DNA of 44,195 bases from a virus (lineage: Duplodnaviria; Heunggongvirae; Uroviricota; Caudoviricetes), in the IMG/VR virus record IMGVR_UViG_2541047814_000002; one strand, given 5' to 3'. Positions 8,352 through 29,120 of the stretch are shown piece by piece. The notes under the pieces are model-generated. The model searched no databases. It saw nothing but the letters and a program-made list of their open reading frames with translations, and was not told where the DNA came from. Both the position numbers and the translations under genes were made by a program. Each line of letters opens with the position of its first letter. Positions within the stretch are counted from its first letter, which is position 1.

Positions 8352-8680
8352 CAGTTCACCACCTGTTCAAACTCTGCGCTGAACTCAACACGCAGCATAC
8401 TGACCCGCGACGACCATTTTGCGCAGGTCACCTTTATCTGCCTGTAACCATAAGGCGGCGTCCACAGAAAGGCCTTCCAGCCCCCGTGCTCAGCCAGAAA
8501 CGACTCCAGCGCCGTGGCCTCCTCACGGGAGACAGACAGCGTCACGCTGTACGTTTTCAGGTCAGCGTTCAGCCCGGCAGGCGCACGCTGGGAATAGCCA
8601 TCACCAAAGCGCACCTCCCTGACGGAAGGAGCCGATGTCACATCCATCCCGGGTTTCACTTTCCAGCGGAAGGTTTTCAT
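8351..8680 (-). CDS. M: minor tail protein M
   Basis: 109 aa matching lambda M; stop overlaps L start. Confidence 0.9.
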   Translation of the reverse strand: MKTFRWKVKPGMDVTSAPSVREVRFGDGYSQRAPAGLNADLKTYSVTLSVSREEATALESFLAEHGGWKAFLWTPPYGYRQIKVTCAKWSSRVSMLRVEFSAEFEQVVN

Positions 8681-9813
8681 CGTCCACCTCCGGAGAACAG
8701 ACCACCATCGCGCATCTGTGCCTGGATTTCATCACGGGCACCCTTGCGGGCCATGTCATACACCGCCTTCATCATCTGTGGACCTGGCAGACCATTCGTA
8801 CCGTCGTTCTGAATCACCACGTTGTTGTTCTGCTCAAACCTGATACCCTCTGAACGCCGCATTTGCGCCGGACTTCCGGTGCCACCGACATAACCGCCGG
8901 TGGCATAGCCGCGCATCAGCCGGTAGAGATTTCCCACGCCAATCCGGCTGGTTGCCTCCTTCGTGAAGACAAATTCACCACGGTGAACAATCCCCGCTGG
9001 CTCATATTTGCCGCCGGTTCCCGTAAATCCTCCGGTTGCAAAATGGAGTTTCGCCGCAGCGGCCTGAATGGCTGTACCGCCTGACGCGGATGCGCCGCCA
9101 CCAACAGCCCCGCCAATAGCGCTGCCGATACTCCCGACAATCCCCACCATTGCCTGCTTAAGCAGAATTTCTGTCATCATGGACAGCACGGAACGGGTGA
9201 AGCTGCGCCAGTTCTGTTCACTGCCGGTCAGCATCGCCGCCATATTCTGCGCAATACCATCAAAGGTCTGCGTGGCAGCACTTTTAACCTGCGACATACT
9301 GTCCGTGGCACTCTCTTCCCACTCACTCCAGCCGGACTTCAGGCCTGCCATCCAGTTCCCGCGAAGCAGGTCTTCAGCCGCCCAGGTCTTTTTCTGCTCT
9401 GACATGACGTTATTCAGCGCCAGAGGATTATCGCCATACTGTTCCTTCAGGCGCTGTTCCGTGGCTTCCCGTTCTGCCTGCCGGTCAGTCAGCCCCCGGC
9501 TTTTCGCATCAATAGCGGCCCGTTTTGCCCGTTGCTGCTGTGCGAATTTATCCGCCTGCTGCGCCAGCGCGTTCAGGCGCTCCTGATACGTAACCTTGTC
9601 GCCAAGTGCAGCCAGCTGGCGTTTGTACTCCAGCGTCTCATCTTTATGCGCCAGCAGGGATTTCTCCTGTGCAGACAGCTGGCGACGTTGCGCCGCCTCC
9701 TCCAGTACCGCGAACTGACTCTCCGCCTTCCACAAATCCCGGCGCTGCTGGCTGATTTTCTCATTTGCTCCGGCATGCTTCTCCAGCGTCCGGAGTTCAG
9801 CCTGAAGCGTCAG
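8677..9813 (-). pseudogene. H: tail tape measure protein H, C-terminal fragment (gene split by IS insertion)
   Basis: Translation ...LTLQAELRTLEKHAGANEKISQQRRDLWKAESQFAVLEE... to GGLFSGGGR matches the C-terminal half of lambda H; frame is closed by a stop at the IS boundary (9814..9816). Confidence 0.9.
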
Positions 9814-9907
9814 CTATGAGACGACAATAACTCAGTCCGCCTGGCGCCGATTATTCTGGCCGGTTTTGTAACCTGAGTGTCATTTACATGATCCAACAGG
9901 AAATGGC

Positions 9908-11407
9908 GTGACGCTCAATACTTCTCAGGTCAGTTACTATATGACTCAGCGTAAGAAAGGTATAACTCAGCATATCTCGGCCATGAAGGCTGGTATCTCA
10001 GTCCGTTCTGGTCGTCGGATCGAAAAAGGAGAGTGGGCAAAAAACAGTGTTCGGCACTGGCGCACACGCAAAGATCCTCTGGAAGCTGTGTGGGACAGCA
10101 TGCTTGTTCCTCTGTTGAAAGAGAGGCCGGCTCTGACACCAACAACTCTGCTGGAGATGCTACAGGATAAATATCCCGGCCAGTACCCCAACAGCCTTCG
10201 AAGAACAATGCAACGGCGGGTCCGCGAATGGAAGCTACAGTATGGTGCAGAGCAGGAGGTCATGTTCCGCCAGCGACATCAGCCCGGTCTGCGAGGTCTG
10301 TCGGACTTTACTGAACTGAAAGGTGTAGTTGTCACCATCGCCGGTAAGTTGTTGGCGCATAAGTTGTATCACTTCCGTCTGGAATGGAGCCACTGGAGCT
10401 GGATGCGGGTTGTGCTGGGTGGTGAGAGCTTCTCTGCTCTGGCTGAAGGTCTGCAGGAAGCCCTCGGACAACTGGGCGGAGTGCCGGTAGAACATAAAAC
10501 GGACAGCCTGAGGGCAGCATGGAAACAACAGGGCGAAGATGGACGCCGCGAGCTGACTGAGCGTTATGCTGCTCTCTGTCAGCACTACGGAATGCAGGGC
10601 GTACACAATAATGCCGGTCGGGGCCACGAAAATGGCTCGGTTGAAAGTGCCCACGGACATCTGAAAAGGCGTATCTGTCAGGCGCTGATACTGCGGGGCA
10701 GTAACGACTTCAGCACCATAGAAGAATATCAGGCCTTCATCACTCAGCAGGTTATGCGGCACAACCGTAACAATCAGGATCTGGTCAAGGAAGAACGTCT
10801 TCATCTGAAACCGCTGCCGCTTCGTCGCAGTGCTGACTATGATGAGCTGACTGTGAGGGTTAGCCGCAGCAGTACCATCAATGTGAAGCACGTCGTCTAC
10901 AGCGTACCTTCCCGGCTTGTAGGTCAACTGTTACGGGTCCGGTTATGGGACGATCGTCTGAGCTGTTACGTTGGCAGCAGCGAGGTCATGAGCTGCCCAC
11001 GTGTCAGACCAGAAAAAGGGAAGACGCGGGCCCGTCGTATCGACTTCCGACATGTGATCGACAGTCTGGCAAAAAAGCCCGGTGCGTTCTGCCATGCAAC
11101 GCTGAGAAATGACATCCTGCCAGACGATGAATGGCGGAGGCTGTGGCGTCGCTTATGTAATCATCTGGAACCCGACATGGCAGGCAGGCTGATGGTACAT
11201 GCTCTGAAACTGGCTGCAGGATACGACGATATCTCAGTCGTGGCAAAAGGTATGGAGCAGATGCTGAATACCCCGGGAAACGTGGATCTGCACCGGCTGA
11301 TGCGCTTCCTGGGTATAAAGGAAAAGGCGTTGCCGGTAGTCAATGTGAAACAGCATAACCTGAGCAGTTATGAGCAACTACTGCGTGGCAAGGGAGGTTC
11401 GCAGTGA
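9908..11407 (+). CDS. istA: IS21-family transposase IstA
   Basis: 499-aa ORF with N-terminal HTH-like region and transposase-like core; followed by overlapping istB; exact start (GTG at 9908 or downstream ATG) uncertain. Confidence 0.8.
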   Translation: MTLNTSQVSYYMTQRKKGITQHISAMKAGISVRSGRRIEKGEWAKNSVRHWRTRKDPLEAVWDSMLVPLLKERPALTPTTLLEMLQDKYPGQYPNSLRRTMQRRVREWKLQYGAEQEVMFRQRHQPGLRGLSDFTELKGVVVTIAGKLLAHKLYHFRLEWSHWSWMRVVLGGESFSALAEGLQEALGQLGGVPVEHKTDSLRAAWKQQGEDGRRELTERYAALCQHYGMQGVHNNAGRGHENGSVESAHGHLKRRICQALILRGSNDFSTIEEYQAFITQQVMRHNRNNQDLVKEERLHLKPLPLRRSADYDELTVRVSRSSTINVKHVVYSVPSRLVGQLLRVRLWDDRLSCYVGSSEVMSCPRVRPEKGKTRARRIDFRHVIDSLAKKPGAFCHATLRNDILPDDEWRRLWRRLCNHLEPDMAGRLMVHALKLAAGYDDISVVAKGMEQMLNTPGNVDLHRLMRFLGIKEKALPVVNVKQHNLSSYEQLLRGKGGSQ

Positions 11408-12159
11408 GCAATATCCATCACCTTGAACGCAGCCTGCGTAAACTACGCCTGACACGAGTTGGAGCTGAATGGCACGCTCTGGAAAAACGAGCACTGGCAG
11501 AAGGCTGGACACCATCGCGCTATCTTCTGACGCTATGCAATGAAGAACTCCTGTGGCGCGAGAGTGAAAAACTGCGTCGTTATAAAAAGGAGGCCCGGTT
11601 GCCAGTTGCCAAAACGCTAAGCGAATACGACTTCAGTCAGGTGCCGGAACTGAATGGAGCTCAGTTCCGGCAACTCTGTGAAACGACAGACTGGGTTGAT
11701 GCAGGAGAAAACGTTCTGCTGTTCGGAGCCAGCGGGTTGGGGAAAAGCCATCTGGCGGCAGCGATCGTGGATGGCGTAGTAGGCCAGGGCTACCGGGCCC
11801 GGTTCTACAGCGCAGGAGAGTTGTTGCAGGAACTACGTAAAGCCAGAGCGCAGTTGAAACTGAATGAGCTGCTACTGAAACTGGATCGCTACCGGGTGAT
11901 AGTGGTGGATGATCTTGGCTATGTCAAACGCGACAGCGCCGAAACGGGAGTACTGTTCGAGTTAATAGCGCATCGCTATGAACGTGGGAGCCTGGTGATA
12001 ACCAGTAACCATCCGTTCAGCATGTGGGGCAGCATCTTCGTGGATGAGACTATGGCGGTGGCGGCGGCAGACCGGCTGATCCATCACGGATATATGTTCG
12101 AACTGAAAGGTGAAAGCTACAGGAAAAAGACAGCGAAGGCAGTAACAAGCGCGACTTGA
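11404..12159 (+). CDS. istB: IS21-family ATP-binding helper protein IstB
   Basis: 251 aa with Walker A GASGLGKSHLA and Walker B VIVVDDLGY; ATGA overlap with istA stop. Confidence 0.9.
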   Translation: MSNIHHLERSLRKLRLTRVGAEWHALEKRALAEGWTPSRYLLTLCNEELLWRESEKLRRYKKEARLPVAKTLSEYDFSQVPELNGAQFRQLCETTDWVDAGENVLLFGASGLGKSHLAAAIVDGVVGQGYRARFYSAGELLQELRKARAQLKLNELLLKLDRYRVIVVDDLGYVKRDSAETGVLFELIAHRYERGSLVITSNHPFSMWGSIFVDETMAVAAADRLIHHGYMFELKGESYRKKTAKAVTSAT

Positions 12160-12224
12160 TGTCGCACTGAAGGGTGCGGCCAGTATAGTTGGCGCGAGTC
12201 GGCAAAACTAGTTGACGTCTAATA

Positions 12225-13654
12225 GTCAGCAGGGCAGCATGAGCACTGTCTTCCTGACGATCGCCCGCAGACACCTTCACGCCGGACTGTTTCGGCTTTT
12301 TCAGCGTCGCTTCATAATCCTTTTTCGCCGCCGCCATCAGCGTGTTGTAATCTGCCTGCAGGATTTTCCCGTCTTTCAGTGCCTTGTTCAGTTCTTCCTG
12401 ACGGGCGGTATATTTCTCCAGCGGTGTCTGCAGCCGTTCGTAAGCCTTCTGCGCCTCTTCGGTATATTTCAGCCGTGATGCTTCGGTATCGCTCTGCTGC
12501 TGCGCATTTTTGTCCTGTTGACTCTGCTGTTCAGCCTTCTTTCGGGCGGCTTCAAGCGCAAGACGGGCCTTTTCACGATCATCCCAGTAACGCGCCCGCG
12601 CTTCATCGTTAACAAAATAATCATCCTTGCGCAGATTCCAGATGTCGTCCGCTTTCTTAAACGCAGCCTCTGCCTTAATCAGCATCTCCTGAGCGGTATC
12701 AGGACGACCAATATCCAGCACCGCATCCCACATGGATTTGAATGCCCGTGCTGTCCTGTCTGCCCAGGTTTCCAGCGTGCCCATGTTCTCTTTCAGGCGT
12801 CGGGTCTGGTCATCAAACCCTTTCGTTGCGGCCTCGTTCGCCGCCTGCAATGCCCCGGATTCATCGCCGGAACGCTGCAACTGAGCAACATACGCAATCT
12901 GCTCCGCCGTTACGTTATGGAACTGGCGCGCCATCGCCGTCAGCCCCGACGTCGGGTCAGTGGTCAGCTTCCCGAAGGCTTCAGCGACCTTGTCCACCTC
13001 CACGCCGGATGCAGAGGAGAAACGCGCCACACTCTGGCTGATGGATGCAATCTGAGCCTCACCGCTTACTCCCGCCTTAACCAGTGCGCTGAGTGACTCG
13101 CTGGTCTGGTTAAACGTCAGCCCTGCCGCCTGCCCGGCTCTGGACAGGACCAGCATACGATCTGCCGTCAGACCCGACTGATTGCCGGAAAGGACCAGCG
13201 TTTTGTTGAAATCGGACAGGGTTGAGTTACCCTGATACCAGGCATACGCCAGCGCACCGGTCGCCACCGCCAGCGAGGTGGCCCCGACCATCGGCAGGGT
13301 GATCGCACCGGCAAGCCCCCGGAACATGGGGATCATCCCGCCGAAGGAGTCCTTAACCTGACCACCCTGTTGCAGCAGGATCAGCCACGGGCTTTGCCCG
13401 CCTGCAAGCTGCGTGGCCACGTCGGTGAACTGTGCAGGCAGCATACGCATGGCGGCTTTATACTGCCCGACGGAAATCCCCGCTTTCTGTGCAGCCAGCG
13501 CCTGTCGGCTCAGCGACTGTTCAACGACTGCCGCTGTTTTTTTCGCATCACTTTCCGTACCGGAAAAATGACGCCTGACTCTGGCCATCTGCTCGTCAAA
13601 TCTGGCCGCATCCAGACTTAAATCAACGACCAGATCGCCTACCGGTTCAGCCAT
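12225..13654 (-). pseudogene. H: tail tape measure protein H, N-terminal fragment (gene split by IS insertion)
   Basis: MAEPVGDLVVDLSLDAARFDEQMARVRRHF... through ...SAHAALLT matches the lambda H N-terminal part; the ORF-track ORF 12050..13654 continues 57 codons into IS sequence (read-through artefact). Confidence 0.9.
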
Positions 13655-21763: not shown

Positions 21764-23675
21764 TCACTCCTCCGGACAGCTTCGCTGCCAGTTCTTTAAG
21801 GGTTGGCCGGGTCGTCTCTTCTTCCCGGGATTTTGCCAGTACAGCCAGATCAAGCTGCCAGCGTTGCACGGACACACGTAATGCCGCGTAGGCATACACC
21901 AGGCAGTCCAGCGCTTCGTTACGCCGCTTTTTGTTATCCCACAGCAGACGCATCTTTCCTTTTTCCCACTTCTCCACAAGCTCTTCCGCGACCAGTTGCT
22001 GCGCCTCTGTCTGCGAAAAAATCTCCGGATCATCAGGAAAACGGATAGCATACGACGTGGCTTCATCCACAGGCGTGGGATCGGCTTTCATACGGGCATA
22101 GAGAATTTCTTTTGCGGTGTCCGTCCCCACTTCACACAGATACACGCCCCGCTGATTGCGGGTTTTTGGCATGGTGATCACCGGCTTGCCATAGACAGAT
22201 GCGCCTTTTACCGGCAGCACCCGGAAAACACCGTGTTTTTTTGACCTCTGATAAACGATTTCGCCATCGATCCCCCCGATGTCCCAGCAGACACGGGAAA
22301 TGGTCATTTCGGTTCCGTCTGCATGGCGGTATTTTTTGTTGATCGCCGCATCCACACGTAACAGCGTCTCTTCCTCATCGGGACGCCCCATAATGATGAT
22401 TTTATCCACCAGAAAGGCTTCCTCTCCCGGAGCCCATCCCCAGACATACATCTCAAAACGGTTTCGCTGCGAGTCAATGCCCGCCGTCAGATAAACCACC
22501 CGGGCAGGCACCGCCGCCGTGTAACGCACAACCTTATCCATCAGCACCTGGTGATCGAGTTTTTCGCCCACAGCCTCTTCCCAGGTCTCGCCCAGCGTGG
22601 TGTTCACAAAGGTTTTCAGGCCGTTGGGATCTTTCAGTGCATCCAGCCAGTCATAGACAATCTGTACCCAGGTGGTGAACGGACTGTACGCCGTCCAGAT
22701 ATGGAAAGTGATGGAGCGCGGCGGCGGAATTTCATCACCCCGGGCGCTGAAAAACATCAGGCCGTCACGGGTCCACATGCCCGTGTTTTCACAGATCCAC
22801 CGCCCGTTACTCTGGTCAAGCTCAGACTGATGGATCACACAGCCATGATGCTCACAAAGGTAGAAAACACTTTCTGGCTTATTCTTCTCCCACTTAAGAC
22901 CGAAAGGCGAGGCATCATCGCCAAATTTCAGATACTGCTCCTCCCCACAGTGCGGACAGGGCACATAAAAACGCATGAAGTGTGCCGACTCGTTAGCGGC
23001 TTTTTCGATCTGGCAGGAGCCTTTGATTTTAGGCGTCGAGCCGCGAATGGATTTTGGCCATACAGAGCCCTCAATACGTTTATCCCCCAGCAGGGTTGGC
23101 GAACCCTCTTTTTCAACATCCGGTTCGAACGAGGAAAGCTCGTCATAACAGACCACATCCACGGATTTTTCACGGTAGTTTTTTGCTGCCGCACCACCCA
23201 GACACCAGAACCCCACACCGGAGGAAAAACGCTTCAGGGTGAGCGTATTATCGCGGTGTTTTCTTCCGAACCATGGAGCCAGCTCCAGCAATGCAGGAAC
23301 ATCCCTTATCGTTGGCTCAACATGAGATTTCATAAAATCTTCAGCAGCTGAGTCCGTGGGCTGAAAAAGAAGGCTGTTGCGTGATTTATGCTCAATAAAA
23401 TAAGCCTCCACTCCCAGCAACATCTTTGTATAACCAACACGGGCAGATTTAATCAGGTTAACCGTGCGAATCAGATCGTTGCCCATACAGTTCATGATGC
23501 CAACCTGAAACGGCAGTGTTTCCCATCGCCCCGGGGTATAAGACGACTCTTTAGGAAGGTAATAATGTTTATTGGCCCACTGAACTGTCGTCAGTGGAAC
23601 AGGAATAATGAGAGATAAAAGCCCTGTAGCTATCGCACCGGCTGCATTAGCTGCCTTCTGCGCGTCTGAAATCAT
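21747..23675 (-). CDS. A: terminase large subunit A
   Basis: Extensive lambda A identity ([42 protein letters not shown]); start set at internal ATG 23673..23675, overlapping Nu1 end as in lambda. Confidence 0.9.
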
Positions 23676-24195
23676 CGATCCACCCGCCCACGTTTTCACC
23701 GGCCTTAGCTGCAACATTGGAGGCTTTCGCGATTTCAGTTTTCACCACATCAAGGTGTGATGGTGAAATGTCCGGATATTTACGCTGTAATGTCAACGGC
23801 ACACGCACAAGTATCCCCGAAATCTCCTGTGCCACACGTTGCAGAATGAAGGTAAACAGTTCAGTTTCCAGCACTACTCCGTCTTCACGGGCATTTTTCA
23901 GTTCCTGCGCATCTGCCTGCGCTTTTGTGAGCCGGTAGCGTTCATAGTCAATGGTGCCGGGTTGTAAATCTGACTCCGCTGCCGCACGCAAATCGTCCAG
24001 TTCTTTGCGGAGCTTTTCGTTTTCGATATCAGTTTCCCTCTGCGCATACCACTGAATTGCCATGGCAGTATCAAATACAGATTCAATGCCCTTACTACCT
24101 TTGGAGGCGCAAGGGAGTCCCTGAGACTGCCAGCGTTCAATCGTCCGCGGGTCCACGTTGAAAATTTCGGCAAGCCTCTTTTTATTAACCTTCAT
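23647..24195 (-). CDS. nu1: terminase small subunit Nu1
   Basis: 182 aa, [12 protein letters not shown]...[10 protein letters not shown]...[13 protein letters not shown] matches lambda Nu1. Confidence 0.9.
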
Positions 24196-24371
24196 GAAAA
24201 CAACCCATTATCAAATACAAGGCCCGACATGAAAACGCCAGAAAAAGGCATTTTCGGACACTTTCATGTCGGACCTTTACGGATGCAATATTAAAAAAAA
24301 CAAAAAGTTATATTCGAGAAGTACCGACACGATTTTCCCTGAAAAATTTTCATAAATAGTGAAAAACCGCG

Positions 24372-24383
24372 AGGTCGCCGCCC
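24372..24383. other. cosN cohesive-end site (12-nt lambda-type cohesive end), with cosB/cosQ flanks
   Basis: AGGTCGCCGCCC is the reverse complement of the lambda cohesive end GGGCGGCGACCT; flanking sequence matches the start of the lambda genome on the minus strand. Confidence 0.85.
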
Positions 24384-24531
24384 CGTAACCTGTTGGATCG
24401 ACGGAAAGGACCCGAAAACGAGAATAATTATCACTTACAGCAAGAATCGAATCTGATCTATTATGGTGCTTGCTATTATGTGCCGGCACAAGTGCGTCGT
24501 TTACCGTCATTTCACACAGAGGCATCATCAA

Positions 24532-24783
24532 ATGAAAATCAGAAATATTCTCGCTATCTCCCTTGCGACATCATCCTTCAGTTGCCTGGCATTTAAATCC
24601 TCGCCCAATGTGCTACCAGGACCAACGAATCAACTAACTGCGGTAGAAAGTAAAATTATCGGACATTTTTATGCCCCACACAGTACATTACCCGGAACAA
24701 CCATCACAGGGACATGTGACGCCTCCCCCGTCCCGGGATGCACCTGTCCGTTTTGTACTATGCTGCGTAGCCAAAACCGATAA
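24532..24783 (+). CDS. hypothetical small secreted Cys-rich protein (83 aa)
   Basis: ATG at 24532 followed by signal-peptide-like MKIRNILAISLATSSFSCLA; Cys cluster GTCDASPVPGCTCPFC; located in cargo region between cos and bor. Confidence 0.3.
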   Translation: MKIRNILAISLATSSFSCLAFKSSPNVLPGPTNQLTAVESKIIGHFYAPHSTLPGTTITGTCDASPVPGCTCPFCTMLRSQNR

Positions 24784-25146
24784 CATCCGCATTTACCTGG
24801 TATTCCATGATGAGTTCACGCAGCGACTGATAGAGGAAGGAAAGATGGTTAGTAAAAGCAAGGCGCATTGCCGCCGCATGCTGCAGGCATTGCAACAGAC
24901 GAGAGCAGGTATTTTTGACCAGTTGGAAAACTGCCAGCATACTTTGCCCGAGTATATCGCCATCTCATCGGAAACCAGTGCAACTCTTATTCATCGGGTT
25001 CCACCAGAGAAAAAGAAGAAATGAACAGTGAGGCGTTGTGTGGCATACAACGCCTTCTTCCATCATTCCTCGTCAGCCATGACAAAAATATAACCGCTGG
25101 CTCTTTCATTTTTCTCCTGCTTCCAGCCCCTCTCTACCTGGAAGCA

Positions 25147-25473
25147 TCAAGGACGTGACGGCGTAAAGATAAATTGTCTCTTCACTCCCTGACAGGGGCG
25201 ATTCTTTTCAAATCGCCATTTCGCCATGGCCTTCACCACTTCATCACGAAACAAATTATGAGGCTCTGAGCGGAGAAAAACGATCCGTGTCACAGTCCCA
25301 TCAGCACCAATATCGAACTTAACCTCAACCAGCCCCTTGATATAATTTGCTGCAGCATATTCCGGATATCGTGGATACACCGTCACTAATTGCCGGGGCT
25401 CATCAGCTTTTTGCTGCGAGCATCCCACTGCCAGGACAGATAACAGAAAAAGTAGTAAAAGGCGTCTTTTCAT
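25147..25473 (-). CDS. TonB C-terminal-domain-like lipoprotein
   Basis: Lipoprotein signal MKRRLLLLFLLSVLAVGC; remainder resembles the TonB C-terminal domain (YP.YP..A....I.G.V.VKFDI.ADG.V......L.S.P...F..EV.KAM.KWRF). Confidence 0.6.
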   Translation of the reverse strand: MKRRLLLLFLLSVLAVGCSQQKADEPRQLVTVYPRYPEYAAANYIKGLVEVKFDIGADGTVTRIVFLRSEPHNLFRDEVVKAMAKWRFEKNRPCQGVKRQFIFTPSRP

Positions 25474-25953
25474 TTTTATTCCTACGGGTCTTATTCTGAC
25501 AATATATCCTGTGTTCCAGACTGCCACATCACCACATCCTGTGCCATTATCTGACTCACATTACATACATCGCATCGGGATACAGTAGTAGCACTTTCTG
25601 TAATACAGCTTCCTGTTTCTTCCACCATCGCACCGGGATAAACCCGCGAATCATTAACGCGGTAAAAACCCGGTGTGCATCGTTTTTAATTATTCCCGCA
25701 CACTCACGCAGAAGGAATTCCCCGTCGGGCTACGGTCATGGTTAATGCGGGAATACGGCGACGATACAGCGCAGCTAAAAGGGTAATGGACGGATAGACC
25801 GGTTTATTTCATTCCACAGGATTCTGAGTGTCCCCAACTTCCTCCAATAGTCTGAGCCCACCTGTGTAGTTTTAATTTTCATCAATCCATTTAACTATCG
25901 TTTAATTGTTGTCACATAGGATTCTGCCGTTTTTAACAATGCAGGATAATAAG

Positions 25954-26247
25954 ATGAAAAAAATGTTGTTTTCTGCCGCTCTGGCAATGCTTATTACAGG
26001 ATGTGCTCAACAGACGTTTACTGTTGGAAACAAACCTACAGCAGTAACACCAAAGGAAACCATCACCCATCATTTCTTCGTTTCGGGAATTGGGCAGAAG
26101 AAAACTGTCGATGCAGCAAAAATTTGTGGTGGTGCAGAAAATGTTGTTAAAACAGAAACCCAGCAAACATTCGTAAATGGATTGCTCGGTTTTATTACTT
26201 TAGGCATTTATACTCCGCTGGAAGCGCGTGTGTATTGCTCACAATAA
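25954..26247 (+). CDS. bor: Bor lipoprotein (serum-resistance, Iss family)
   Basis: 97 aa, MKKMLFSAALAMLITGCAQQTFTV.NKP.AV.PKETITHHFFVSGIGQKKTVDAAKICGG... matches lambda Bor. Confidence 0.9.
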   Translation: MKKMLFSAALAMLITGCAQQTFTVGNKPTAVTPKETITHHFFVSGIGQKKTVDAAKICGGAENVVKTETQQTFVNGLLGFITLGIYTPLEARVYCSQ

Positions 26248-26278
26248 TTGCATGAGTTGCCCATCGATATGGGCAGCT

Positions 26279-26740
26279 CTATCTGCACTGCTCATTAATA
26301 TACTTCTGGGTTCCTTCCAGTTGTTTTTGCATAGTGATCAGCCTCTCTCTGAGGGTGAAATAATCCCGTTCAGCGGTGTCTGCCAGTCGGGGGGAGGCTG
26401 CATTATCCACGCCGGAGGCGGTGGTGGCTTCACGCACTGACTGACAGACTGCTTTGATGTGCAACCGACGACGACCAGCGGCAACATCATCACGCAGAGC
26501 ATCATTTTCAGCTTTCGCATCAGCTAACTCCTTCGTGTATTTTGCATCGAGCGCAGCAACATCACGCTGACGCATCTGTATGTCAGTAATTACCGCGTTC
26601 GCCAGCGTCAGTTCTCTGGCATTTTTGTCGCGCTGGGCTTTGTAGGTAATGGCGTTATCACGGTAATGATTAACAGCCCATGACAGGCAGACGATGATGC
26701 AGATAACCAGAGCGGAGATAATCGCGGTTACTCTGTTCAT
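26279..26740 (-). CDS. Rz: i-spanin Rz
   Basis: [44 protein letters not shown]... matches lambda Rz. Confidence 0.9.
26338..26520 (-). CDS. Rz1: o-spanin Rz1 (lipoprotein, embedded in +1 frame of Rz)
   Basis: 60 aa, .[58 protein letters not shown] matches lambda Rz1. Confidence 0.85.
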
Positions 26741-27234
26741 TGCTGACCCCACAAACAGATTTCACGCTCAATCTCACGACGAGTCATGAGACCTTTCCAT
26801 TGCTTACCGCCAGCATATGTCCAGCGACGTAGCTGATCACATGCGCCTTTGATATCGCCCTGGTTTATTTTGCGAAGAAGCGTCGATGTTCTGAAATTGC
26901 CAGCACCCACGTTGTAAACGAATGAGTAAAGAGCGCCGCGCATTGTTTCCGGTATATCGACTTTGATGTACGGGTTAATTTGTCTGGCGACCGTGGCAAG
27001 GTCTTTATTCAGGAGGGCTTTGCATTCTGCTTTGGTATACGTTTTACCGAGCATGATGTCTTTTCCTGTATGCCCGTGACATACAGTCCATACACCAACA
27101 ATATCTTTGTATGGTATGTAGCTGACACCTTCCAGACCATCGTTACCACTTGGGCCAGTGATTAACACTGATGCTATAGCAATTGCTCCGCCACCAATAG
27201 CAGCAGCAACGGCTTTTCGTAATGATGGAGGCAT
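26737..27234 (-). CDS. R: SAR endolysin (T4-lysozyme-like, GH24) with N-terminal signal-anchor-release domain
   Basis: N-terminal Gly/Ala-rich weakly hydrophobic segment [18 protein letters not shown] followed by lysozyme catalytic region (E..D..T); resembles phage 21 R rather than lambda R transglycosylase. Confidence 0.85.
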
Positions 27235-27449
27235 TATTCACCTCTCGCAGCCTTGCGCTTATCTTCTTTAATCTTGAAATAAAGGTTTGTCAGGTACGTC
27301 AGCAGGCCAAATACCAGGCTACCCAGCACACCTATTGCCGCCCACTGTGAGGGCGTGACTTTATCGAGCAACTGTAAAAACCAGTACCCGGCACTACCTG
27401 CTGAGGTACCATAGGCGACACCCGTTGTTAACTTATCCATGGATTTCAT
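27234..27449 (-). CDS. S: pinholin (S21-type) with dual start motif
   Basis: 71 aa, MKSMDK...[18 protein letters not shown]...[35 protein letters not shown] resembles phage 21 S pinholin. Confidence 0.85.
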
Positions 27450-27574
27450 AACCCCACCTCGCAGACAAAGCGGGTGTAAATTAAGGGGATACTACGTATC
27501 GCAATAAAGGCAGAAACGTAACAGATTCGGAGTCAGTGAATAACTCAGGTATTGGGTTATCAGCTAATATCGAG

Positions 27575-27612
27575 ACTCAAAAAATGGAAAAACCCGCTCG
27601 ACGGCGGGTTTA
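27575..27612 (-). terminator. candidate intrinsic terminator upstream of S
   Basis: Minus-strand hairpin AACCCGC..GCGGGTT followed by TTTTTCCATTTTTTGA. Confidence 0.4.
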
Positions 27613-28037
27613 AGCTGTGTGACGAAGTAACCACTCTTAACAGCATAACCAATTTTTTACGTACGTAAACTACTAAATGATATTTGTGAGAATGCCACCG
27701 AGTGTTCAAAACACCACCACAAATGCATAAGAAAACTTCAACAAATAACCAGTTAATAATTTCCAATGTTATTTTTAGTTTGTTTAAATTAAGCTAAAGA
27801 ATTATAGAGCACTTATAAATAAGTGCCATTAATATAAATTAGCTAATAGATTTATTTTTGTTCAGACAAGAGCCATGAATAGGATTAGATAGAAAAGGTT
27901 CAGATAAAAATAGAGATCTACTTCACAAATTAAATGAGAAACTAAAACTTACATCTTGAAATAATCACATTGATTAGATGAATATTTATCGCGCAGTGAC
28001 ATCATTTTTTAATAATAGTTCAAAAAAAGGGCGTACA

Positions 28038-29120
28038 ATGAAAAAATTAACAGTGGCAATTTCTGCTGTAGCTGCATCAGTACTGATGGCGATGTCTGCT
28101 CAGGCAGCTGAAATTTATAATAAAGACAGTAACAAGCTGGATCTATACGGGAAAGTTAATGCCAAGCACTACTTCTCCTCTAATGATGCAGATGATGGTG
28201 ATACTACTTATGCCCGTCTTGGCTTCAAAGGTGAAACCCAAATCAACGATCAACTGACTGGTTTCGGTCAGTGGGAATATGAATTCAAAGGCAACCGTGC
28301 TGAATCTCAAGGTTCTTCCAAAGACAAAACCCGTCTTGCATTTGCAGGCCTGAAATTTGGTGATTACGGCTCAATCGATTACGGCCGTAACTACGGTGTA
28401 GCATACGACATCGGTGCGTGGACTGACGTTCTGCCAGAATTCGGTGGTGATACCTGGACCCAAACAGATGTGTTCATGACTGGTCGCACTACTGGTGTTG
28501 CAACTTATCGTAACAACGACTTCTTTGGTCTGGTCGATGGCCTGAACTTTGCTGCTCAGTATCAGGGTAAAAATGACCGCACTGACGTAACTGAAGCCAA
28601 TGGTGATGGTTTCGGTTTCTCCACTACTTATGAGTATGAAGGATTCGGCGTGGGTGCAACCTATGCTAAATCAGATCGCACTGACGGTCAGGTCGCCTAT
28701 GGTAAGAGCAAATTCAATGCCTCCGGCAAAAATGCGGAAGTATGGGCTGCAGGCCTGAAATATGATGCGAACAATATCTATCTGGCTACCACATATTCTG
28801 AAACTCAGAATATGACCGTTTTTGGTAATAACCATATTGCAAACAAAGCACAAAACTTTGAAGCAGTAGCACAATATCAGTTTGACTTCGGTCTGCGTCC
28901 ATCTGTTGCTTACCTTCAGTCAAAAGGTAAAGACCTTGGTGTTCATGGTGACCGAGACTTAGTCAAGTATGTCGATGTCGGTGCTACTTACTACTTTAAT
29001 AAAAACATGTCCACTTTTGTTGATTACAAAATCAACTTAATTGACGATAGTAAGTTTACCAAAACAGCTGGTATTGATACCGACGACATCGTCGCTGTAG
29101 GTCTGGTTTATCAGTTCTAA
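28038..29120 (+). CDS. nmpC: outer membrane porin, NmpC/Lc (OmpC-family) type
   Basis: 360 aa with signal peptide [38 protein letters not shown] start and C-terminal VAVGLVYQF; located between Q and S as in DLP12 and PA-2. Confidence 0.9.

What the first reader, a model, noticed from the sequence alone, without database searches (positions are those of the whole stretch)
25147..25473. Cargo lipoprotein with a TonB C-terminal-like domain between cos and bor
A ~108-aa protein with a lipoprotein signal (LAVGC lipobox) has a mature part resembling the periplasmic C-terminal domain of TonB (YP..A......G.V.VKFDI..DG.V). It sits on the opposite strand to the neighbouring structural and lysis genes, in the cargo region next to bor. 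A phage-encoded TonB-C mimic could interfere with TonB-dependent outer-membrane receptors, which would affect superinfection by phages or colicins that use them, or iron uptake. Lipoproteins such as T5 Llp and Cor are known to block FhuA, but a TonB-domain version is not something I recognise as characterised.
Basis: partly seen in the sequence, partly recalled or inferred. Interest (0 to 1): 0.6.

Follow-up and report, generated by a model that had tools for sequence, protein, structure and literature searches.

The report
Phage lipoprotein carrying a TonB C-terminal domain
A lambdoid prophage (identical here to classical phage 21) encodes a small outer-membrane lipoprotein that is essentially just the receptor-binding end of the bacterial energy-coupling protein TonB; it is real, selected and common in E. 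coli, already labelled "TonB family protein" in databases, but its function, most likely a powerless TonB decoy, has not been tested.

Summary
The ORF is real: window 25147-25473, minus strand, 108 aa. It has a lipoprotein signal (MKRRLLLLFLLSVLAVGC|SQQ) followed by a complete TonB C-terminal domain. Support: Pfam PF03544 E=7e-13; gapless alignment to E. coli TonB 151-230; AlphaFold model matching BtuB- and FhuA-bound TonB at about 1 Å. It lacks TonB's membrane anchor and proline-rich spacer, so it cannot transduce energy.

The gene lies on the same strand as the lysis and terminase genes; bor is the gene on the opposite strand.

The gene is 100% identical in phage 21 and occurs in 1225 of 5426 complete E. 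coli genomes. A 72%-identical variant occurs in 415 more, and a 41% relative sits after the lysis genes of a Klebsiella phage. dN/dS of about 0.13 shows purifying selection.

Databases already call it "TonB family protein" or "TonB C-terminal domain protein". I found no functional study.

Best guess, inferred only: an outer-membrane-tethered, non-energised TonB decoy that caps TonB boxes and blocks TonB-dependent import of phages, colicins and siderophores.

In passing, I found an unannotated conserved structured-RNA candidate just upstream. Interest is moderate.

The parts
25147..25473 (-). Coding sequence of the 108-aa TonB-C lipoprotein (stop codon included)
   Evidence: ORF list and translation. 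It is 100% identical to phage 21 CPT_21_73. dN/dS is 0.12-0.13 against the 72%-identical variant.
25420..25473 (-). Signal peptide and lipobox (residues 1-18: MKRRLLLLFLLSVLAVGC). Cys18 is the predicted lipidated residue. Ser at +2 predicts sorting to the outer membrane.
   Evidence: Read directly from the sequence. The lipobox Cys is invariant in the 8-sequence family alignment and a lipobox is present in more distant relatives. No lipoprotein predictor was available. The +2 sorting rule is established knowledge, not tested here.
25165..25404 (-). TonB C-terminal domain (residues 24-103), equivalent to E. coli TonB residues 151-230. It includes the YP motif (Y36 P37) and strand beta3 (residues 94-103).
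   Evidence: Pfam PF03544. Gapless alignment to PDB entries 1u07, 2gsk and 2grx. AlphaFold model with pLDDT above 95 over residues 25-105. Foldseek rmsd of 0.9-1.5 Å to TonB C-terminal domains.
25480..25483 (-). Ribosome-binding site AGGA, 6 nt upstream of the ATG
   Evidence: Sequence. Phage 21 annotates an RBS at the same place.
25631..25767 (-). Context, not shown to belong to the gene: a conserved structured-RNA candidate in the late-transcript sense, 160-290 nt upstream of the gene
   Evidence: Alignments A3 and A6. RNAalifold gives -39.6 kcal/mol on this strand against -16.6 on the other. Seven pairs carry compensatory changes, reached by 0 of 500 shuffles. No Rfam match.
25951..26247 (+). 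Context: bor/iss lipoprotein gene. It is the neighbour that really lies on the opposite strand.
   Evidence: Pfam Lambda_Bor E=1e-30.
26279..26752 (-). Context: Rz i-spanin gene with embedded Rz1 o-spanin (26338-26520). The phage therefore already has a complete spanin pair.
   Evidence: ORF list and the phage 21 annotation.
24372..24383 (-). Context: cos cohesive-end sequence GGGCGGCGACCT
   Evidence: Unique exact match. The phage 21 genome ends here.

Best explanation
The gene encodes a small lipoprotein. After signal-peptidase II cleavage it is lipidated at Cys18. [quoted passage not shown] Its roughly 90-residue mature part is a complete TonB C-terminal domain on a very short tether.

It lacks TonB's N-terminal transmembrane helix and proline-rich spacer, so it cannot couple to ExbB/ExbD or deliver energy.

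The most likely activity is that of a decoy. It would bind, by beta-strand augmentation on its exposed beta3 edge, the TonB-box segments that TonB-dependent outer-membrane transporters (and group B colicins) extend into the periplasm. This would lock out the real, energised TonB. The result would be a block on TonB-dependent entry of competing phages (T1/phi80-type), colicins and microcins, and as a side effect of siderophores and vitamin B12.

It is probably made mainly from the Q-antiterminated late transcript, together with the lysis genes.

Shown: the gene, the domain, the fold, purifying selection, and the conserved position and orientation. Inferred: lipidation and outer-membrane location, TonB-box binding, the inhibitory effect, and the timing of expression.
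For: Identity:
- Pfam TonB_C E=7.3e-13 and TIGR01352 above its cutoff.
- Gapless alignment of residues 24-103 to E. coli TonB 151-230.
- The YP motif and the positions of TonB aromatic residues F180, F202, W213, Y215 and F230 are kept as F53, F75, W86, F88 and F103 (mapping).
- AlphaFold model pLDDT 87.8. Best structural matches include TonB bound to BtuB (2gsk_B, rmsd 1.0 Å) and to FhuA (2grx_C, rmsd 0.9 Å).
- The protein ends at the equivalent of TonB residue 235, with prolines at positions 105 and 108. It therefore covers about the same span as the 81-residue TonB chain solved in the BtuB complex, chain residues 1-78 of which align to query residues 26-103.

Not an energy transducer:
- The NCBIfam TonB equivalog models score at most 69 bits against cutoffs of 265-448, and only over their C-terminal parts.
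- The N-terminus is a lipoprotein signal.

A real, selected gene:
- dN/dS is 0.12-0.13 at dS of about 1.4.
- It is found in 1225 and 415 of 5426 E. coli genomes for the two variants.
- Length and lipobox are conserved.
- In 75 of 80 contigs it lies after Rz on the same strand. The same placement is seen in a Klebsiella phage with an unrelated lysis cassette.

Mechanistic precedent:
- Exported TonB fragments 33-239, 103-239 and 122-239 inhibit the TonB system (10.1101/2020.01.05.895219).
[quoted passage not shown] It is present in all such transporters and in TonB-dependent colicins. It can extend 20-30 Å into the periplasm. Contact with it does not need energised TonB (PMC11658791).
Against: - There is no experimental or expression evidence of any kind.
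- A TonB blocker would starve a lysogen of iron and B12. Yet the gene sits in about a quarter of E. coli genomes, including Nissle 1917. So it is either not made in lysogens, made at low level, or not inhibitory.
- If it is only made late in lytic growth, the benefit of excluding other phages or colicins is unclear.
- The receptor reported for phage 21 is LamB, a TonB-independent porin (PMC11336670). Self-receptor masking in the manner of Llp or Cor therefore does not apply.
- Homologues at 35-48% identity sit in non-phage chromosomal contexts in Raoultella and Erwinia. This suggests a housekeeping role for this lipoprotein family that need not be inhibitory.
- The residue equivalent to TonB Q160, the classic TonB-box cross-linking and suppressor site, is not conserved (Y33 here, L in variant 2). 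R166 is replaced by Y39.
- No promoter, Fur box or terminator was found that would define its regulation.
Confidence: 0.4

Rival explanations
1. It is a late-expressed envelope accessory protein with a role other than inhibition. The TonB-like fold would serve as a generic periplasmic binding module for peptidoglycan or some outer-membrane protein. It might help lysis, outer-membrane integrity or virion release. The chromosomal homologues would do the same housekeeping job.
For: The gene is always co-oriented with, and directly downstream of, the lysis cassette. This holds even in a Klebsiella phage with unrelated lysis genes. No own promoter was found. Chromosomal homologues exist in Raoultella and Erwinia beside envelope-type genes such as glycine-zipper and DUF1440 proteins.
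Against: The phage already has a complete holin, endolysin and Rz/Rz1 set. The domain is closest in sequence and shape to bona fide TonB in its transporter-bound form. The post-lysis slot is also simply the usual cargo slot, as for bor. No specific partner can be named.
Confidence: 0.2
2. It is a narrow-spectrum decoy or immunity factor. It would not shut down TonB transport generally. Instead it would trap the N-terminal TonB box of incoming group B colicins or microcins, or bind one particular transporter. This would protect the induced or lysogenic cell at little cost to iron uptake.
For: The structural arguments are the same as for the main model. TonB-dependent colicins carry their own TonB boxes (PMC11658791). 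High prevalence in strains that depend on siderophores argues against a global block.
Against: TonB-box recognition is mostly backbone beta-pairing with little sequence specificity (PMC11658791). Nothing in the sequence points to a particular target. It is untested.
Confidence: 0.15
3. It is a dead remnant of a captured tonB gene, as some annotations imply ("TonB fragment", "partial tonB-like membrane protein"), with no function.
For: Annotation wording in ev017 and Perceval. The gene covers only the last third of TonB.
Against: dN/dS is 0.12-0.13 with nearly saturated synonymous change. It has gained a lipoprotein signal with a conserved lipobox. The length is a fixed 108 aa in both variants. 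It is only 38-40% identical to E. coli TonB, so it is not a recent capture. A wider family of similar short lipoproteins exists.
Confidence: 0.03
4. It is a spanin component, as PHROG 1267 labels the family ("Rz-like spanin").
For: Best PHROG hit is phrog_1267, E=5e-43. It is an outer-membrane lipoprotein encoded next to the lysis genes.
Against: A separate Rz/Rz1 pair is present at 26279-26752 and 26338-26520. The protein is a globular TonB domain, not a short proline-rich o-spanin, and it has no C-terminal membrane helix as a unimolecular spanin would. The label most likely comes from position and lipobox alone.
Confidence: 0.02

Closest known systems
C-terminal domain of E. coli TonB (residues about 150-239; PDB 1U07, 1XX3, 2GSK, 2GRX)
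   Same: Same fold and same Pfam family. It is 38-40% identical over a gapless 80 residues. The YP motif and core aromatic residues are kept, and strand beta3, which pairs with the TonB box, is present.
   Different: There is no N-terminal transmembrane helix and no proline-rich spacer. Instead it has a lipoprotein signal and a tether of about 6-14 residues, so it is anchored to the opposite (outer) membrane and cannot be energised by ExbB/ExbD. It lacks the last four TonB residues. The Q160 and R166 equivalents differ.
Engineered periplasmic TonB fragments (TonB 33-239, 103-239, 122-239 exported with a signal peptide)
   Same: These are TonB C-terminal domains delivered to the periplasm without the membrane anchor. 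They inhibit TonB-dependent transport, an effect attributed to blocking TonB-transporter contacts (10.1101/2020.01.05.895219). This is the direct functional precedent.
   Different: They are laboratory constructs, soluble and overexpressed. The phage protein is natural, lipid-anchored at the outer membrane, and of unknown abundance. Its inhibitory activity is untested.
Phage superinfection-exclusion lipoproteins Llp (T5) and Cor (phi80, N15, HK022)
   Same: Small phage-encoded outer-membrane lipoproteins that act from the periplasmic side on a TonB-dependent transporter (FhuA) to block entry of phages and colicins (Llp: bioRxiv 10.64898/2026.03.26.714494; Cor from general knowledge).
   Different: There is no detectable sequence relationship; TonB_C is the only Pfam hit. 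Llp and Cor mask the phage's own receptor. Here the receptor reported for phage 21 is a porin, and the predicted target is the generic TonB box rather than one receptor.
Bor/Iss lipoprotein, the neighbouring lambdoid cargo gene
   Same: A small outer-membrane lipoprotein encoded in the same region between lysis genes and cos. Both genes occur together in 45 of 80 contigs.
   Different: It belongs to an unrelated family (Lambda_Bor). It lies on the opposite strand, and in lambda-like HK629 a consensus promoter is annotated upstream of it on its own strand. It is linked to serum resistance (the RefSeq product name for this neighbour is 'increased serum survival lipoprotein Iss'; the phenotype itself is from general knowledge).

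Membership tests
TonB_C domain family (Pfam PF03544 / TIGR01352) | Profile match above the curated cutoff | tested here: met
   PF03544 scores 49.2 bits against 24.6. TIGR01352 scores 47.4 bits against 27.1.
TonB_C domain family (Pfam PF03544 / TIGR01352) | [quoted passage not shown] | tested here: met
   AlphaFold model pLDDT 87.8 with strands at 47-55, 61-70 and 94-103 and a helix at 76-83. Foldseek 1u07_A gives TM 0.91 and 2gsk_B gives rmsd 1.0 Å. Y36 P37 align with Y163 P164.
TonB energy transducer (TonB proper; NCBIfam PRK10819 equivalogs) | Full-length match above the equivalog cutoff | tested here: not met
   Best score is 69.2 bits against a cutoff of 315. Only profile positions of about 150-240 match.
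TonB energy transducer (TonB proper; NCBIfam PRK10819 equivalogs) | N-terminal transmembrane anchor that couples to ExbB/ExbD, plus a proline-rich periplasmic spacer | tested here: not met
   The N-terminus is an 18-residue lipoprotein signal. Only about 6-14 residues separate Cys18 from the domain, and there is no proline-rich stretch.
TonB energy transducer (TonB proper; NCBIfam PRK10819 equivalogs) | [quoted passage not shown] | not testable with these tools
   Strand beta3 and the overall binding-competent shape are present. No complex prediction or binding assay was possible.
Bacterial lipoproteins (signal peptidase II substrates) | Positively charged n-region, hydrophobic core, and a lipobox ending in Cys | tested here: met
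   MKRR-LLLLFLLSVL-AVGC by inspection. The Cys is invariant in the family alignment. No dedicated predictor was run. Lipidation itself is not testable here.
Llp/Cor superinfection-exclusion lipoproteins | Sequence or fold relationship to Llp or Cor | tested here: not met
   TonB_C is the only Pfam hit. All significant structural matches are TonB, FusB or TolA-type domains.
Llp/Cor superinfection-exclusion lipoproteins | Blocks the phage's own TonB-dependent receptor | tested here: not met
   Phage 21, which carries the identical gene, is reported to use LamB, with OmpC and OmpF after evolution (PMC11336670). The blocking activity itself is not testable here.
Spanins (the PHROG 1267 label 'Rz-like spanin') | An o-spanin embedded in or adjacent to its i-spanin partner, or a unimolecular spanin with a C-terminal membrane helix | tested here: not met
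   A separate Rz/Rz1 pair is present. This protein is 320-2069 nt downstream of Rz, is globular, and has no C-terminal hydrophobic segment.
Known anti-phage defence systems (PADLOC) | Match to any defence-system protein model | tested here: not met
   No hit at E<=1.

The most novel reading that the evidence does not exclude
Lambdoid phages of E. coli, including classical phage 21 and prophages of Nissle 1917 and Stx1 phages, carry a natural outer-membrane-tethered TonB decoy. A single small protein would shut the whole TonB-dependent import route from the periplasmic side. This would be a generic exclusion mechanism against TonB-dependent phages, group B colicins, microcins and possibly siderophore-conjugated antibiotics. 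It would be mechanistically distinct from receptor-specific blockers such as Llp and Cor.
Probability: 0.3. Interest if true: 0.7.

Novelty: new variant of a known kind. Interest (0 to 1): 0.5.

Why it matters
If the decoy model holds, about a quarter of E. coli strains carry a phage gene able to modulate the whole TonB-dependent uptake route. That route serves iron, vitamin B12, colicins, microcins, several phages, and siderophore-antibiotic conjugates. This would bear on phage-phage and bacteriocin competition in the gut, on phage-therapy host range, and possibly on susceptibility to "Trojan horse" antibiotics. It would also give TonB researchers a natural, minimal, membrane-mislocalised TonB C-terminal domain for dissecting what TonB-box binding does without energy. 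If the model fails, the protein remains an easily testable, very common prophage gene of unknown function in a classical model phage.

Tried and rejected
Regulation and RNA:
- A sigma-70 promoter and terminator scan of 24200-26400 found nothing on the gene's strand upstream of it. The only strong site is an antisense one inside the gene.
- A Fur-box search of the window with up to 3 mismatches found none. There is thus no sign of iron regulation.
- Rfam gave nothing relevant at E<=1 over 23500-28500 or at E<=10 over 25560-25820.
- The svsR sRNA of the related NC-SV prophage was considered as an explanation for the conserved upstream element. It was rejected because svsR lies at the cI gene (PMC12803456).

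Protein searches:
- PADLOC gave no hit.
- Single-sequence AlphaFold gave a poor model (pLDDT 50.8). It was replaced by an alignment-based run.
- The word-indexed homologue search returned only close E. coli relatives. Distant relatives needed the exhaustive search.
- The first locus search, with an 18-sequence alignment, failed for lack of a conserved stretch. It was repeated with 8 sequences.

Literature:
- They covered accession numbers, annotation phrases, and combinations of TonB, prophage and lipoprotein. None found a paper on this protein.

Explanations rejected: pseudogene or remnant, and the spanin label (see rivals).

Full report
**What is there**

Window positions 25147-25473 on the minus strand hold an ATG-started ORF of 108 codons. 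An AGGA ribosome-binding site lies six bases upstream. The product is MKRRLLLLFLLSVLAVGCSQQKADEPRQLVTVYPRYPEYAAANYIKGLVEVKFDIGADGTVTRIVFLRSEPHNLFRDEVVKAMAKWRFEKNRPCQGVKRQFIFTPSRP.

The first 18 residues have the layout of a lipoprotein signal: a basic n-region, a hydrophobic core and a lipobox ending in Cys18. Ser at +2 predicts, by the established Lol sorting rule, transfer to the outer membrane. That is a prediction, not a result.

**The TonB resemblance is real**

- Pfam TonB_C scores E=7.3e-13, 49.2 bits against a gathering score of 24.6, over residues 33-99.
- TIGR01352 also passes its cutoff.
- Against PDB sequences, residues 24-103 align without a gap to E. coli TonB, E of about 1e-14. 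Counting back from the known C-terminus gives TonB residues 151-230.
- With that offset of +127, Y36-P37 match the YP motif Y163-P164. F53, F75, W86, F88 and F103 match F180, F202, W213, Y215 and F230.
- Q160 and R166 are not kept (Y33 and Y39).
- A single-sequence AlphaFold run was poor. A 25-sequence alignment gave pLDDT 87.8, above 95 over residues 25-105.
- Foldseek's twelve significant PDB hits (E <= 0.001) are all TonB or TonB-like (FusB, TonB2) C-terminal domains. They include TonB bound to BtuB (2gsk_B, rmsd 1.0 Å, 40% identity) and to FhuA (2grx_C, rmsd 0.9 Å).

**It is not a TonB**

The NCBIfam TonB equivalog models reach at most 69 bits against cutoffs of 265-448, and match only their C-terminal parts. 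The protein has no transmembrane anchor and no proline-rich spacer. It is a TonB head on a lipid anchor, predicted to sit on the wrong membrane for energy coupling.

**Surroundings and the strand error**

The window is a lambdoid prophage, about 100% identical over 24 kb to Escherichia phage PhiR63_2. From this gene to cos it is base-for-base identical to the right end of phage 21.

On the minus strand the order is:
- S, R and Rz/Rz1 (27449-26279)
- bor, on the plus strand (25951-26247; Pfam Lambda_Bor)
- a conserved non-coding element
- the TonB-C gene
- two tiny ORFs
- cos (GGGCGGCGACCT, 24372-24383)
- Nu1 and the large terminase

So the gene is on the same strand as the lysis and packaging genes.

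In 80 related viral contigs the gene is always co-oriented with Rz and with Nu1. Rz is found in 75 contigs, at a median gap of 809 nt. Nu1 is found in 69 contigs, at a median gap of 956 nt. bor is present in only 45.

I found no sigma-70-like promoter on its strand upstream, no Fur box and no canonical terminator. The curated phage 21 record annotates no promoter there either. The simplest reading is transcription as part of the Q-antiterminated late operon. A weak promoter of its own cannot be excluded.

**Distribution and selection**

- The identical gene is in phage 21 ("TonB C-terminal domain protein"), ev017, Perceval ("TonB fragment") and three PhiR phages.
- It is in 1225 of 5426 complete E. 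coli genomes as WP_000830178.1 "TonB family protein", including Nissle 1917 next to iss.
- The exact protein is on at least 1000 contigs and carries only generic names.
- A second variant, 72% identical and also 108 aa with a lipobox, is in 415 genomes. It occurs in Stx1a phages, JLK-2012 and Lys8385Vzw. It again lies between Rz and the terminase genes, and there without bor.
- Between the two variants dS is about 1.4 and dN/dS is 0.12-0.13. This is a protein under purifying selection, not a tonB remnant.
- A 41%-identical lipoprotein lies directly after the holin-lysozyme-spanin genes of Klebsiella phage ST13-OXA48phi12.4.
- An exhaustive profile-free search found a wider set of proteins of about 105-130 aa, 35-46% identical, most with a lipobox and one TonB_C domain.
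- In Raoultella and Erwinia these sit in ordinary chromosomal contexts (LacI, glycine-zipper, DUF1440, DUF1722 and MlrA neighbours; araA).

**How it most likely works**

Published work provides the following:
- The TonB box is present in all TonB-dependent transporters and colicins.
- It can extend 20-30 Å into the periplasm.
- It can be contacted by unenergised TonB (PMC11658791).
- Exported TonB fragments lacking the anchor inhibit the TonB system (10.1101/2020.01.05.895219).

The phage protein keeps beta3. It ends just after it with two prolines. Its short tether would hold it within a few nanometres of the inner face of the outer membrane, where TonB boxes emerge.

I therefore favour a non-energised decoy that caps TonB boxes and blocks TonB-dependent import (confidence about 0.4). 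All steps beyond domain identity are inference.

Arguments against:
- The cost to iron and B12 uptake, in strains where the gene is very common.
- The unclear benefit if it is made only late in lytic growth.
- The receptor reported for phage 21 is the porin LamB, so the protein does not mask its own receptor as Llp and Cor do.
- The chromosomal homologues hint at a non-inhibitory housekeeping role.
- The Q160 equivalent is not conserved.

Rivals:
- A late envelope accessory protein (0.2).
- A narrow colicin/microcin or single-transporter decoy (0.15).
- A remnant (0.03).
- A spanin, as PHROG 1267 labels it (0.02). The phage already has Rz/Rz1.

**Comparison with known things, and novelty**

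By domain it is a member of the TonB_C family. By architecture it fails the defining features of TonB proper. It would work like laboratory dominant-negative TonB fragments. In outcome it would resemble Llp and Cor, to which it is unrelated in sequence and fold.

The gene and its domain are already annotated in public records. Ten literature searches found no functional study. I rate it a new variant of a known kind with moderate interest: a common, easily testable gene in a classical phage with a plausible and distinctive mechanism, but so far only a hypothesis.

**Seen in passing**

A non-coding stretch about 160-290 nt upstream of the gene (window about 25631-25767, late-transcript sense) is far more conserved than the coding sequence.

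Sixteen diverse copies fold into a common multi-stem structure:
- The consensus energy is -39.6 kcal/mol on this strand against -16.6 on the other.
- 97% of cells are paired.
- Seven pairs carry compensatory changes; 0 of 500 shuffles reach this.
- Many G-U pairs are valid only on this strand.

It matches no Rfam family. It occurs in 432 phage records, only 15 of which carry the TonB-C gene. It is in 4583 of 5426 E. coli genomes, including K-12 and 695 plasmid sites, and none of the 25 copies listed from across that ranking carries an annotation. It is therefore independent of the TonB-C gene, and may be the more novel object here.

Also noted:
- A prophage porin gene lies between Q and the lysis genes.
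- An IS21-family element splits the tape-measure gene, so this prophage copy is probably tail-defective.

Noticed in passing
window 25631-25767 (minus strand); the most widely shared part is about 25677-25767: A conserved, unannotated structured-RNA candidate in the late-transcript sense, between bor and the TonB-C gene.
- Sixteen diverse copies share a multi-stem fold at -39.6 kcal/mol, against -16.6 on the other strand.
- Seven pairs carry compensatory changes (0 of 500 shuffles), and many G-U pairs are valid only on this strand.
- No Rfam match.
- It is present in 432 phage records, including lambda-like, Stx and Salmonella ES18 phages.
- It is present in 4583 of 5426 E. coli genomes, including K-12 and 695 plasmid sites; none of the 25 copies listed carries an annotation.
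- It is independent of the TonB-C gene.
- In HK629 its 5' part overlaps an annotated consensus promoter on the bor strand.
   Followed up: partly
window 27978-29120 (plus strand): A prophage-encoded general porin: 380 aa, Pfam Porin_1 E=2e-151. It lies between the Q region and the lysis genes, preceded by a very AT-rich stretch of 27-30% GC. With bor and the TonB-C lipoprotein, this makes three outer-membrane cargo genes within 4 kb.
   Followed up: partly
window 9908-12159 (plus strand), within 8677-13654: An IS21-family element (an ORF with a Mu-transposase C-terminal domain hit, plus IstB, PF01695 E=1e-61) interrupts the tail tape-measure gene. The N-terminal part is at 12050-13654 and the C-terminal part at 8677-9735. 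This prophage copy is probably unable to build tails, yet its TonB-C gene is intact.
   Followed up: partly
window 25319-25346 (plus strand), inside the TonB-C coding sequence: The best sigma-70-like promoter match in the region: TTAACC, 16 nt, TATAAT, with an upstream TG (10 of 12). It points antisense to the TonB-C gene, towards the conserved element and bor. It could drive an antisense or bor-directed transcript.
   Followed up: no
L003 6738-7301 (Raoultella ornithinolytica) and L093 1232-1858 (Klebsiella phage ST13-OXA48phi12.4): A DUF1440 (YagU-like) membrane protein lies next to the chromosomal TonB-C lipoprotein homologue in Raoultella. A DUF1440 protein is also cargo about 3 kb upstream of the TonB-C homologue in the Klebsiella phage. 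This may be a coincidence or a shared cargo block.
   Followed up: no
window 24532-24783 (plus strand): An unannotated 83-aa ORF on the strand opposite the late genes, between the TonB-C gene and cos. It has a signal-peptide-like N-terminus (MKIRNILAISLATSSFSCLA) and several cysteines. It has no Pfam hit and is not annotated in phage 21 or RefSeq.
   Followed up: no
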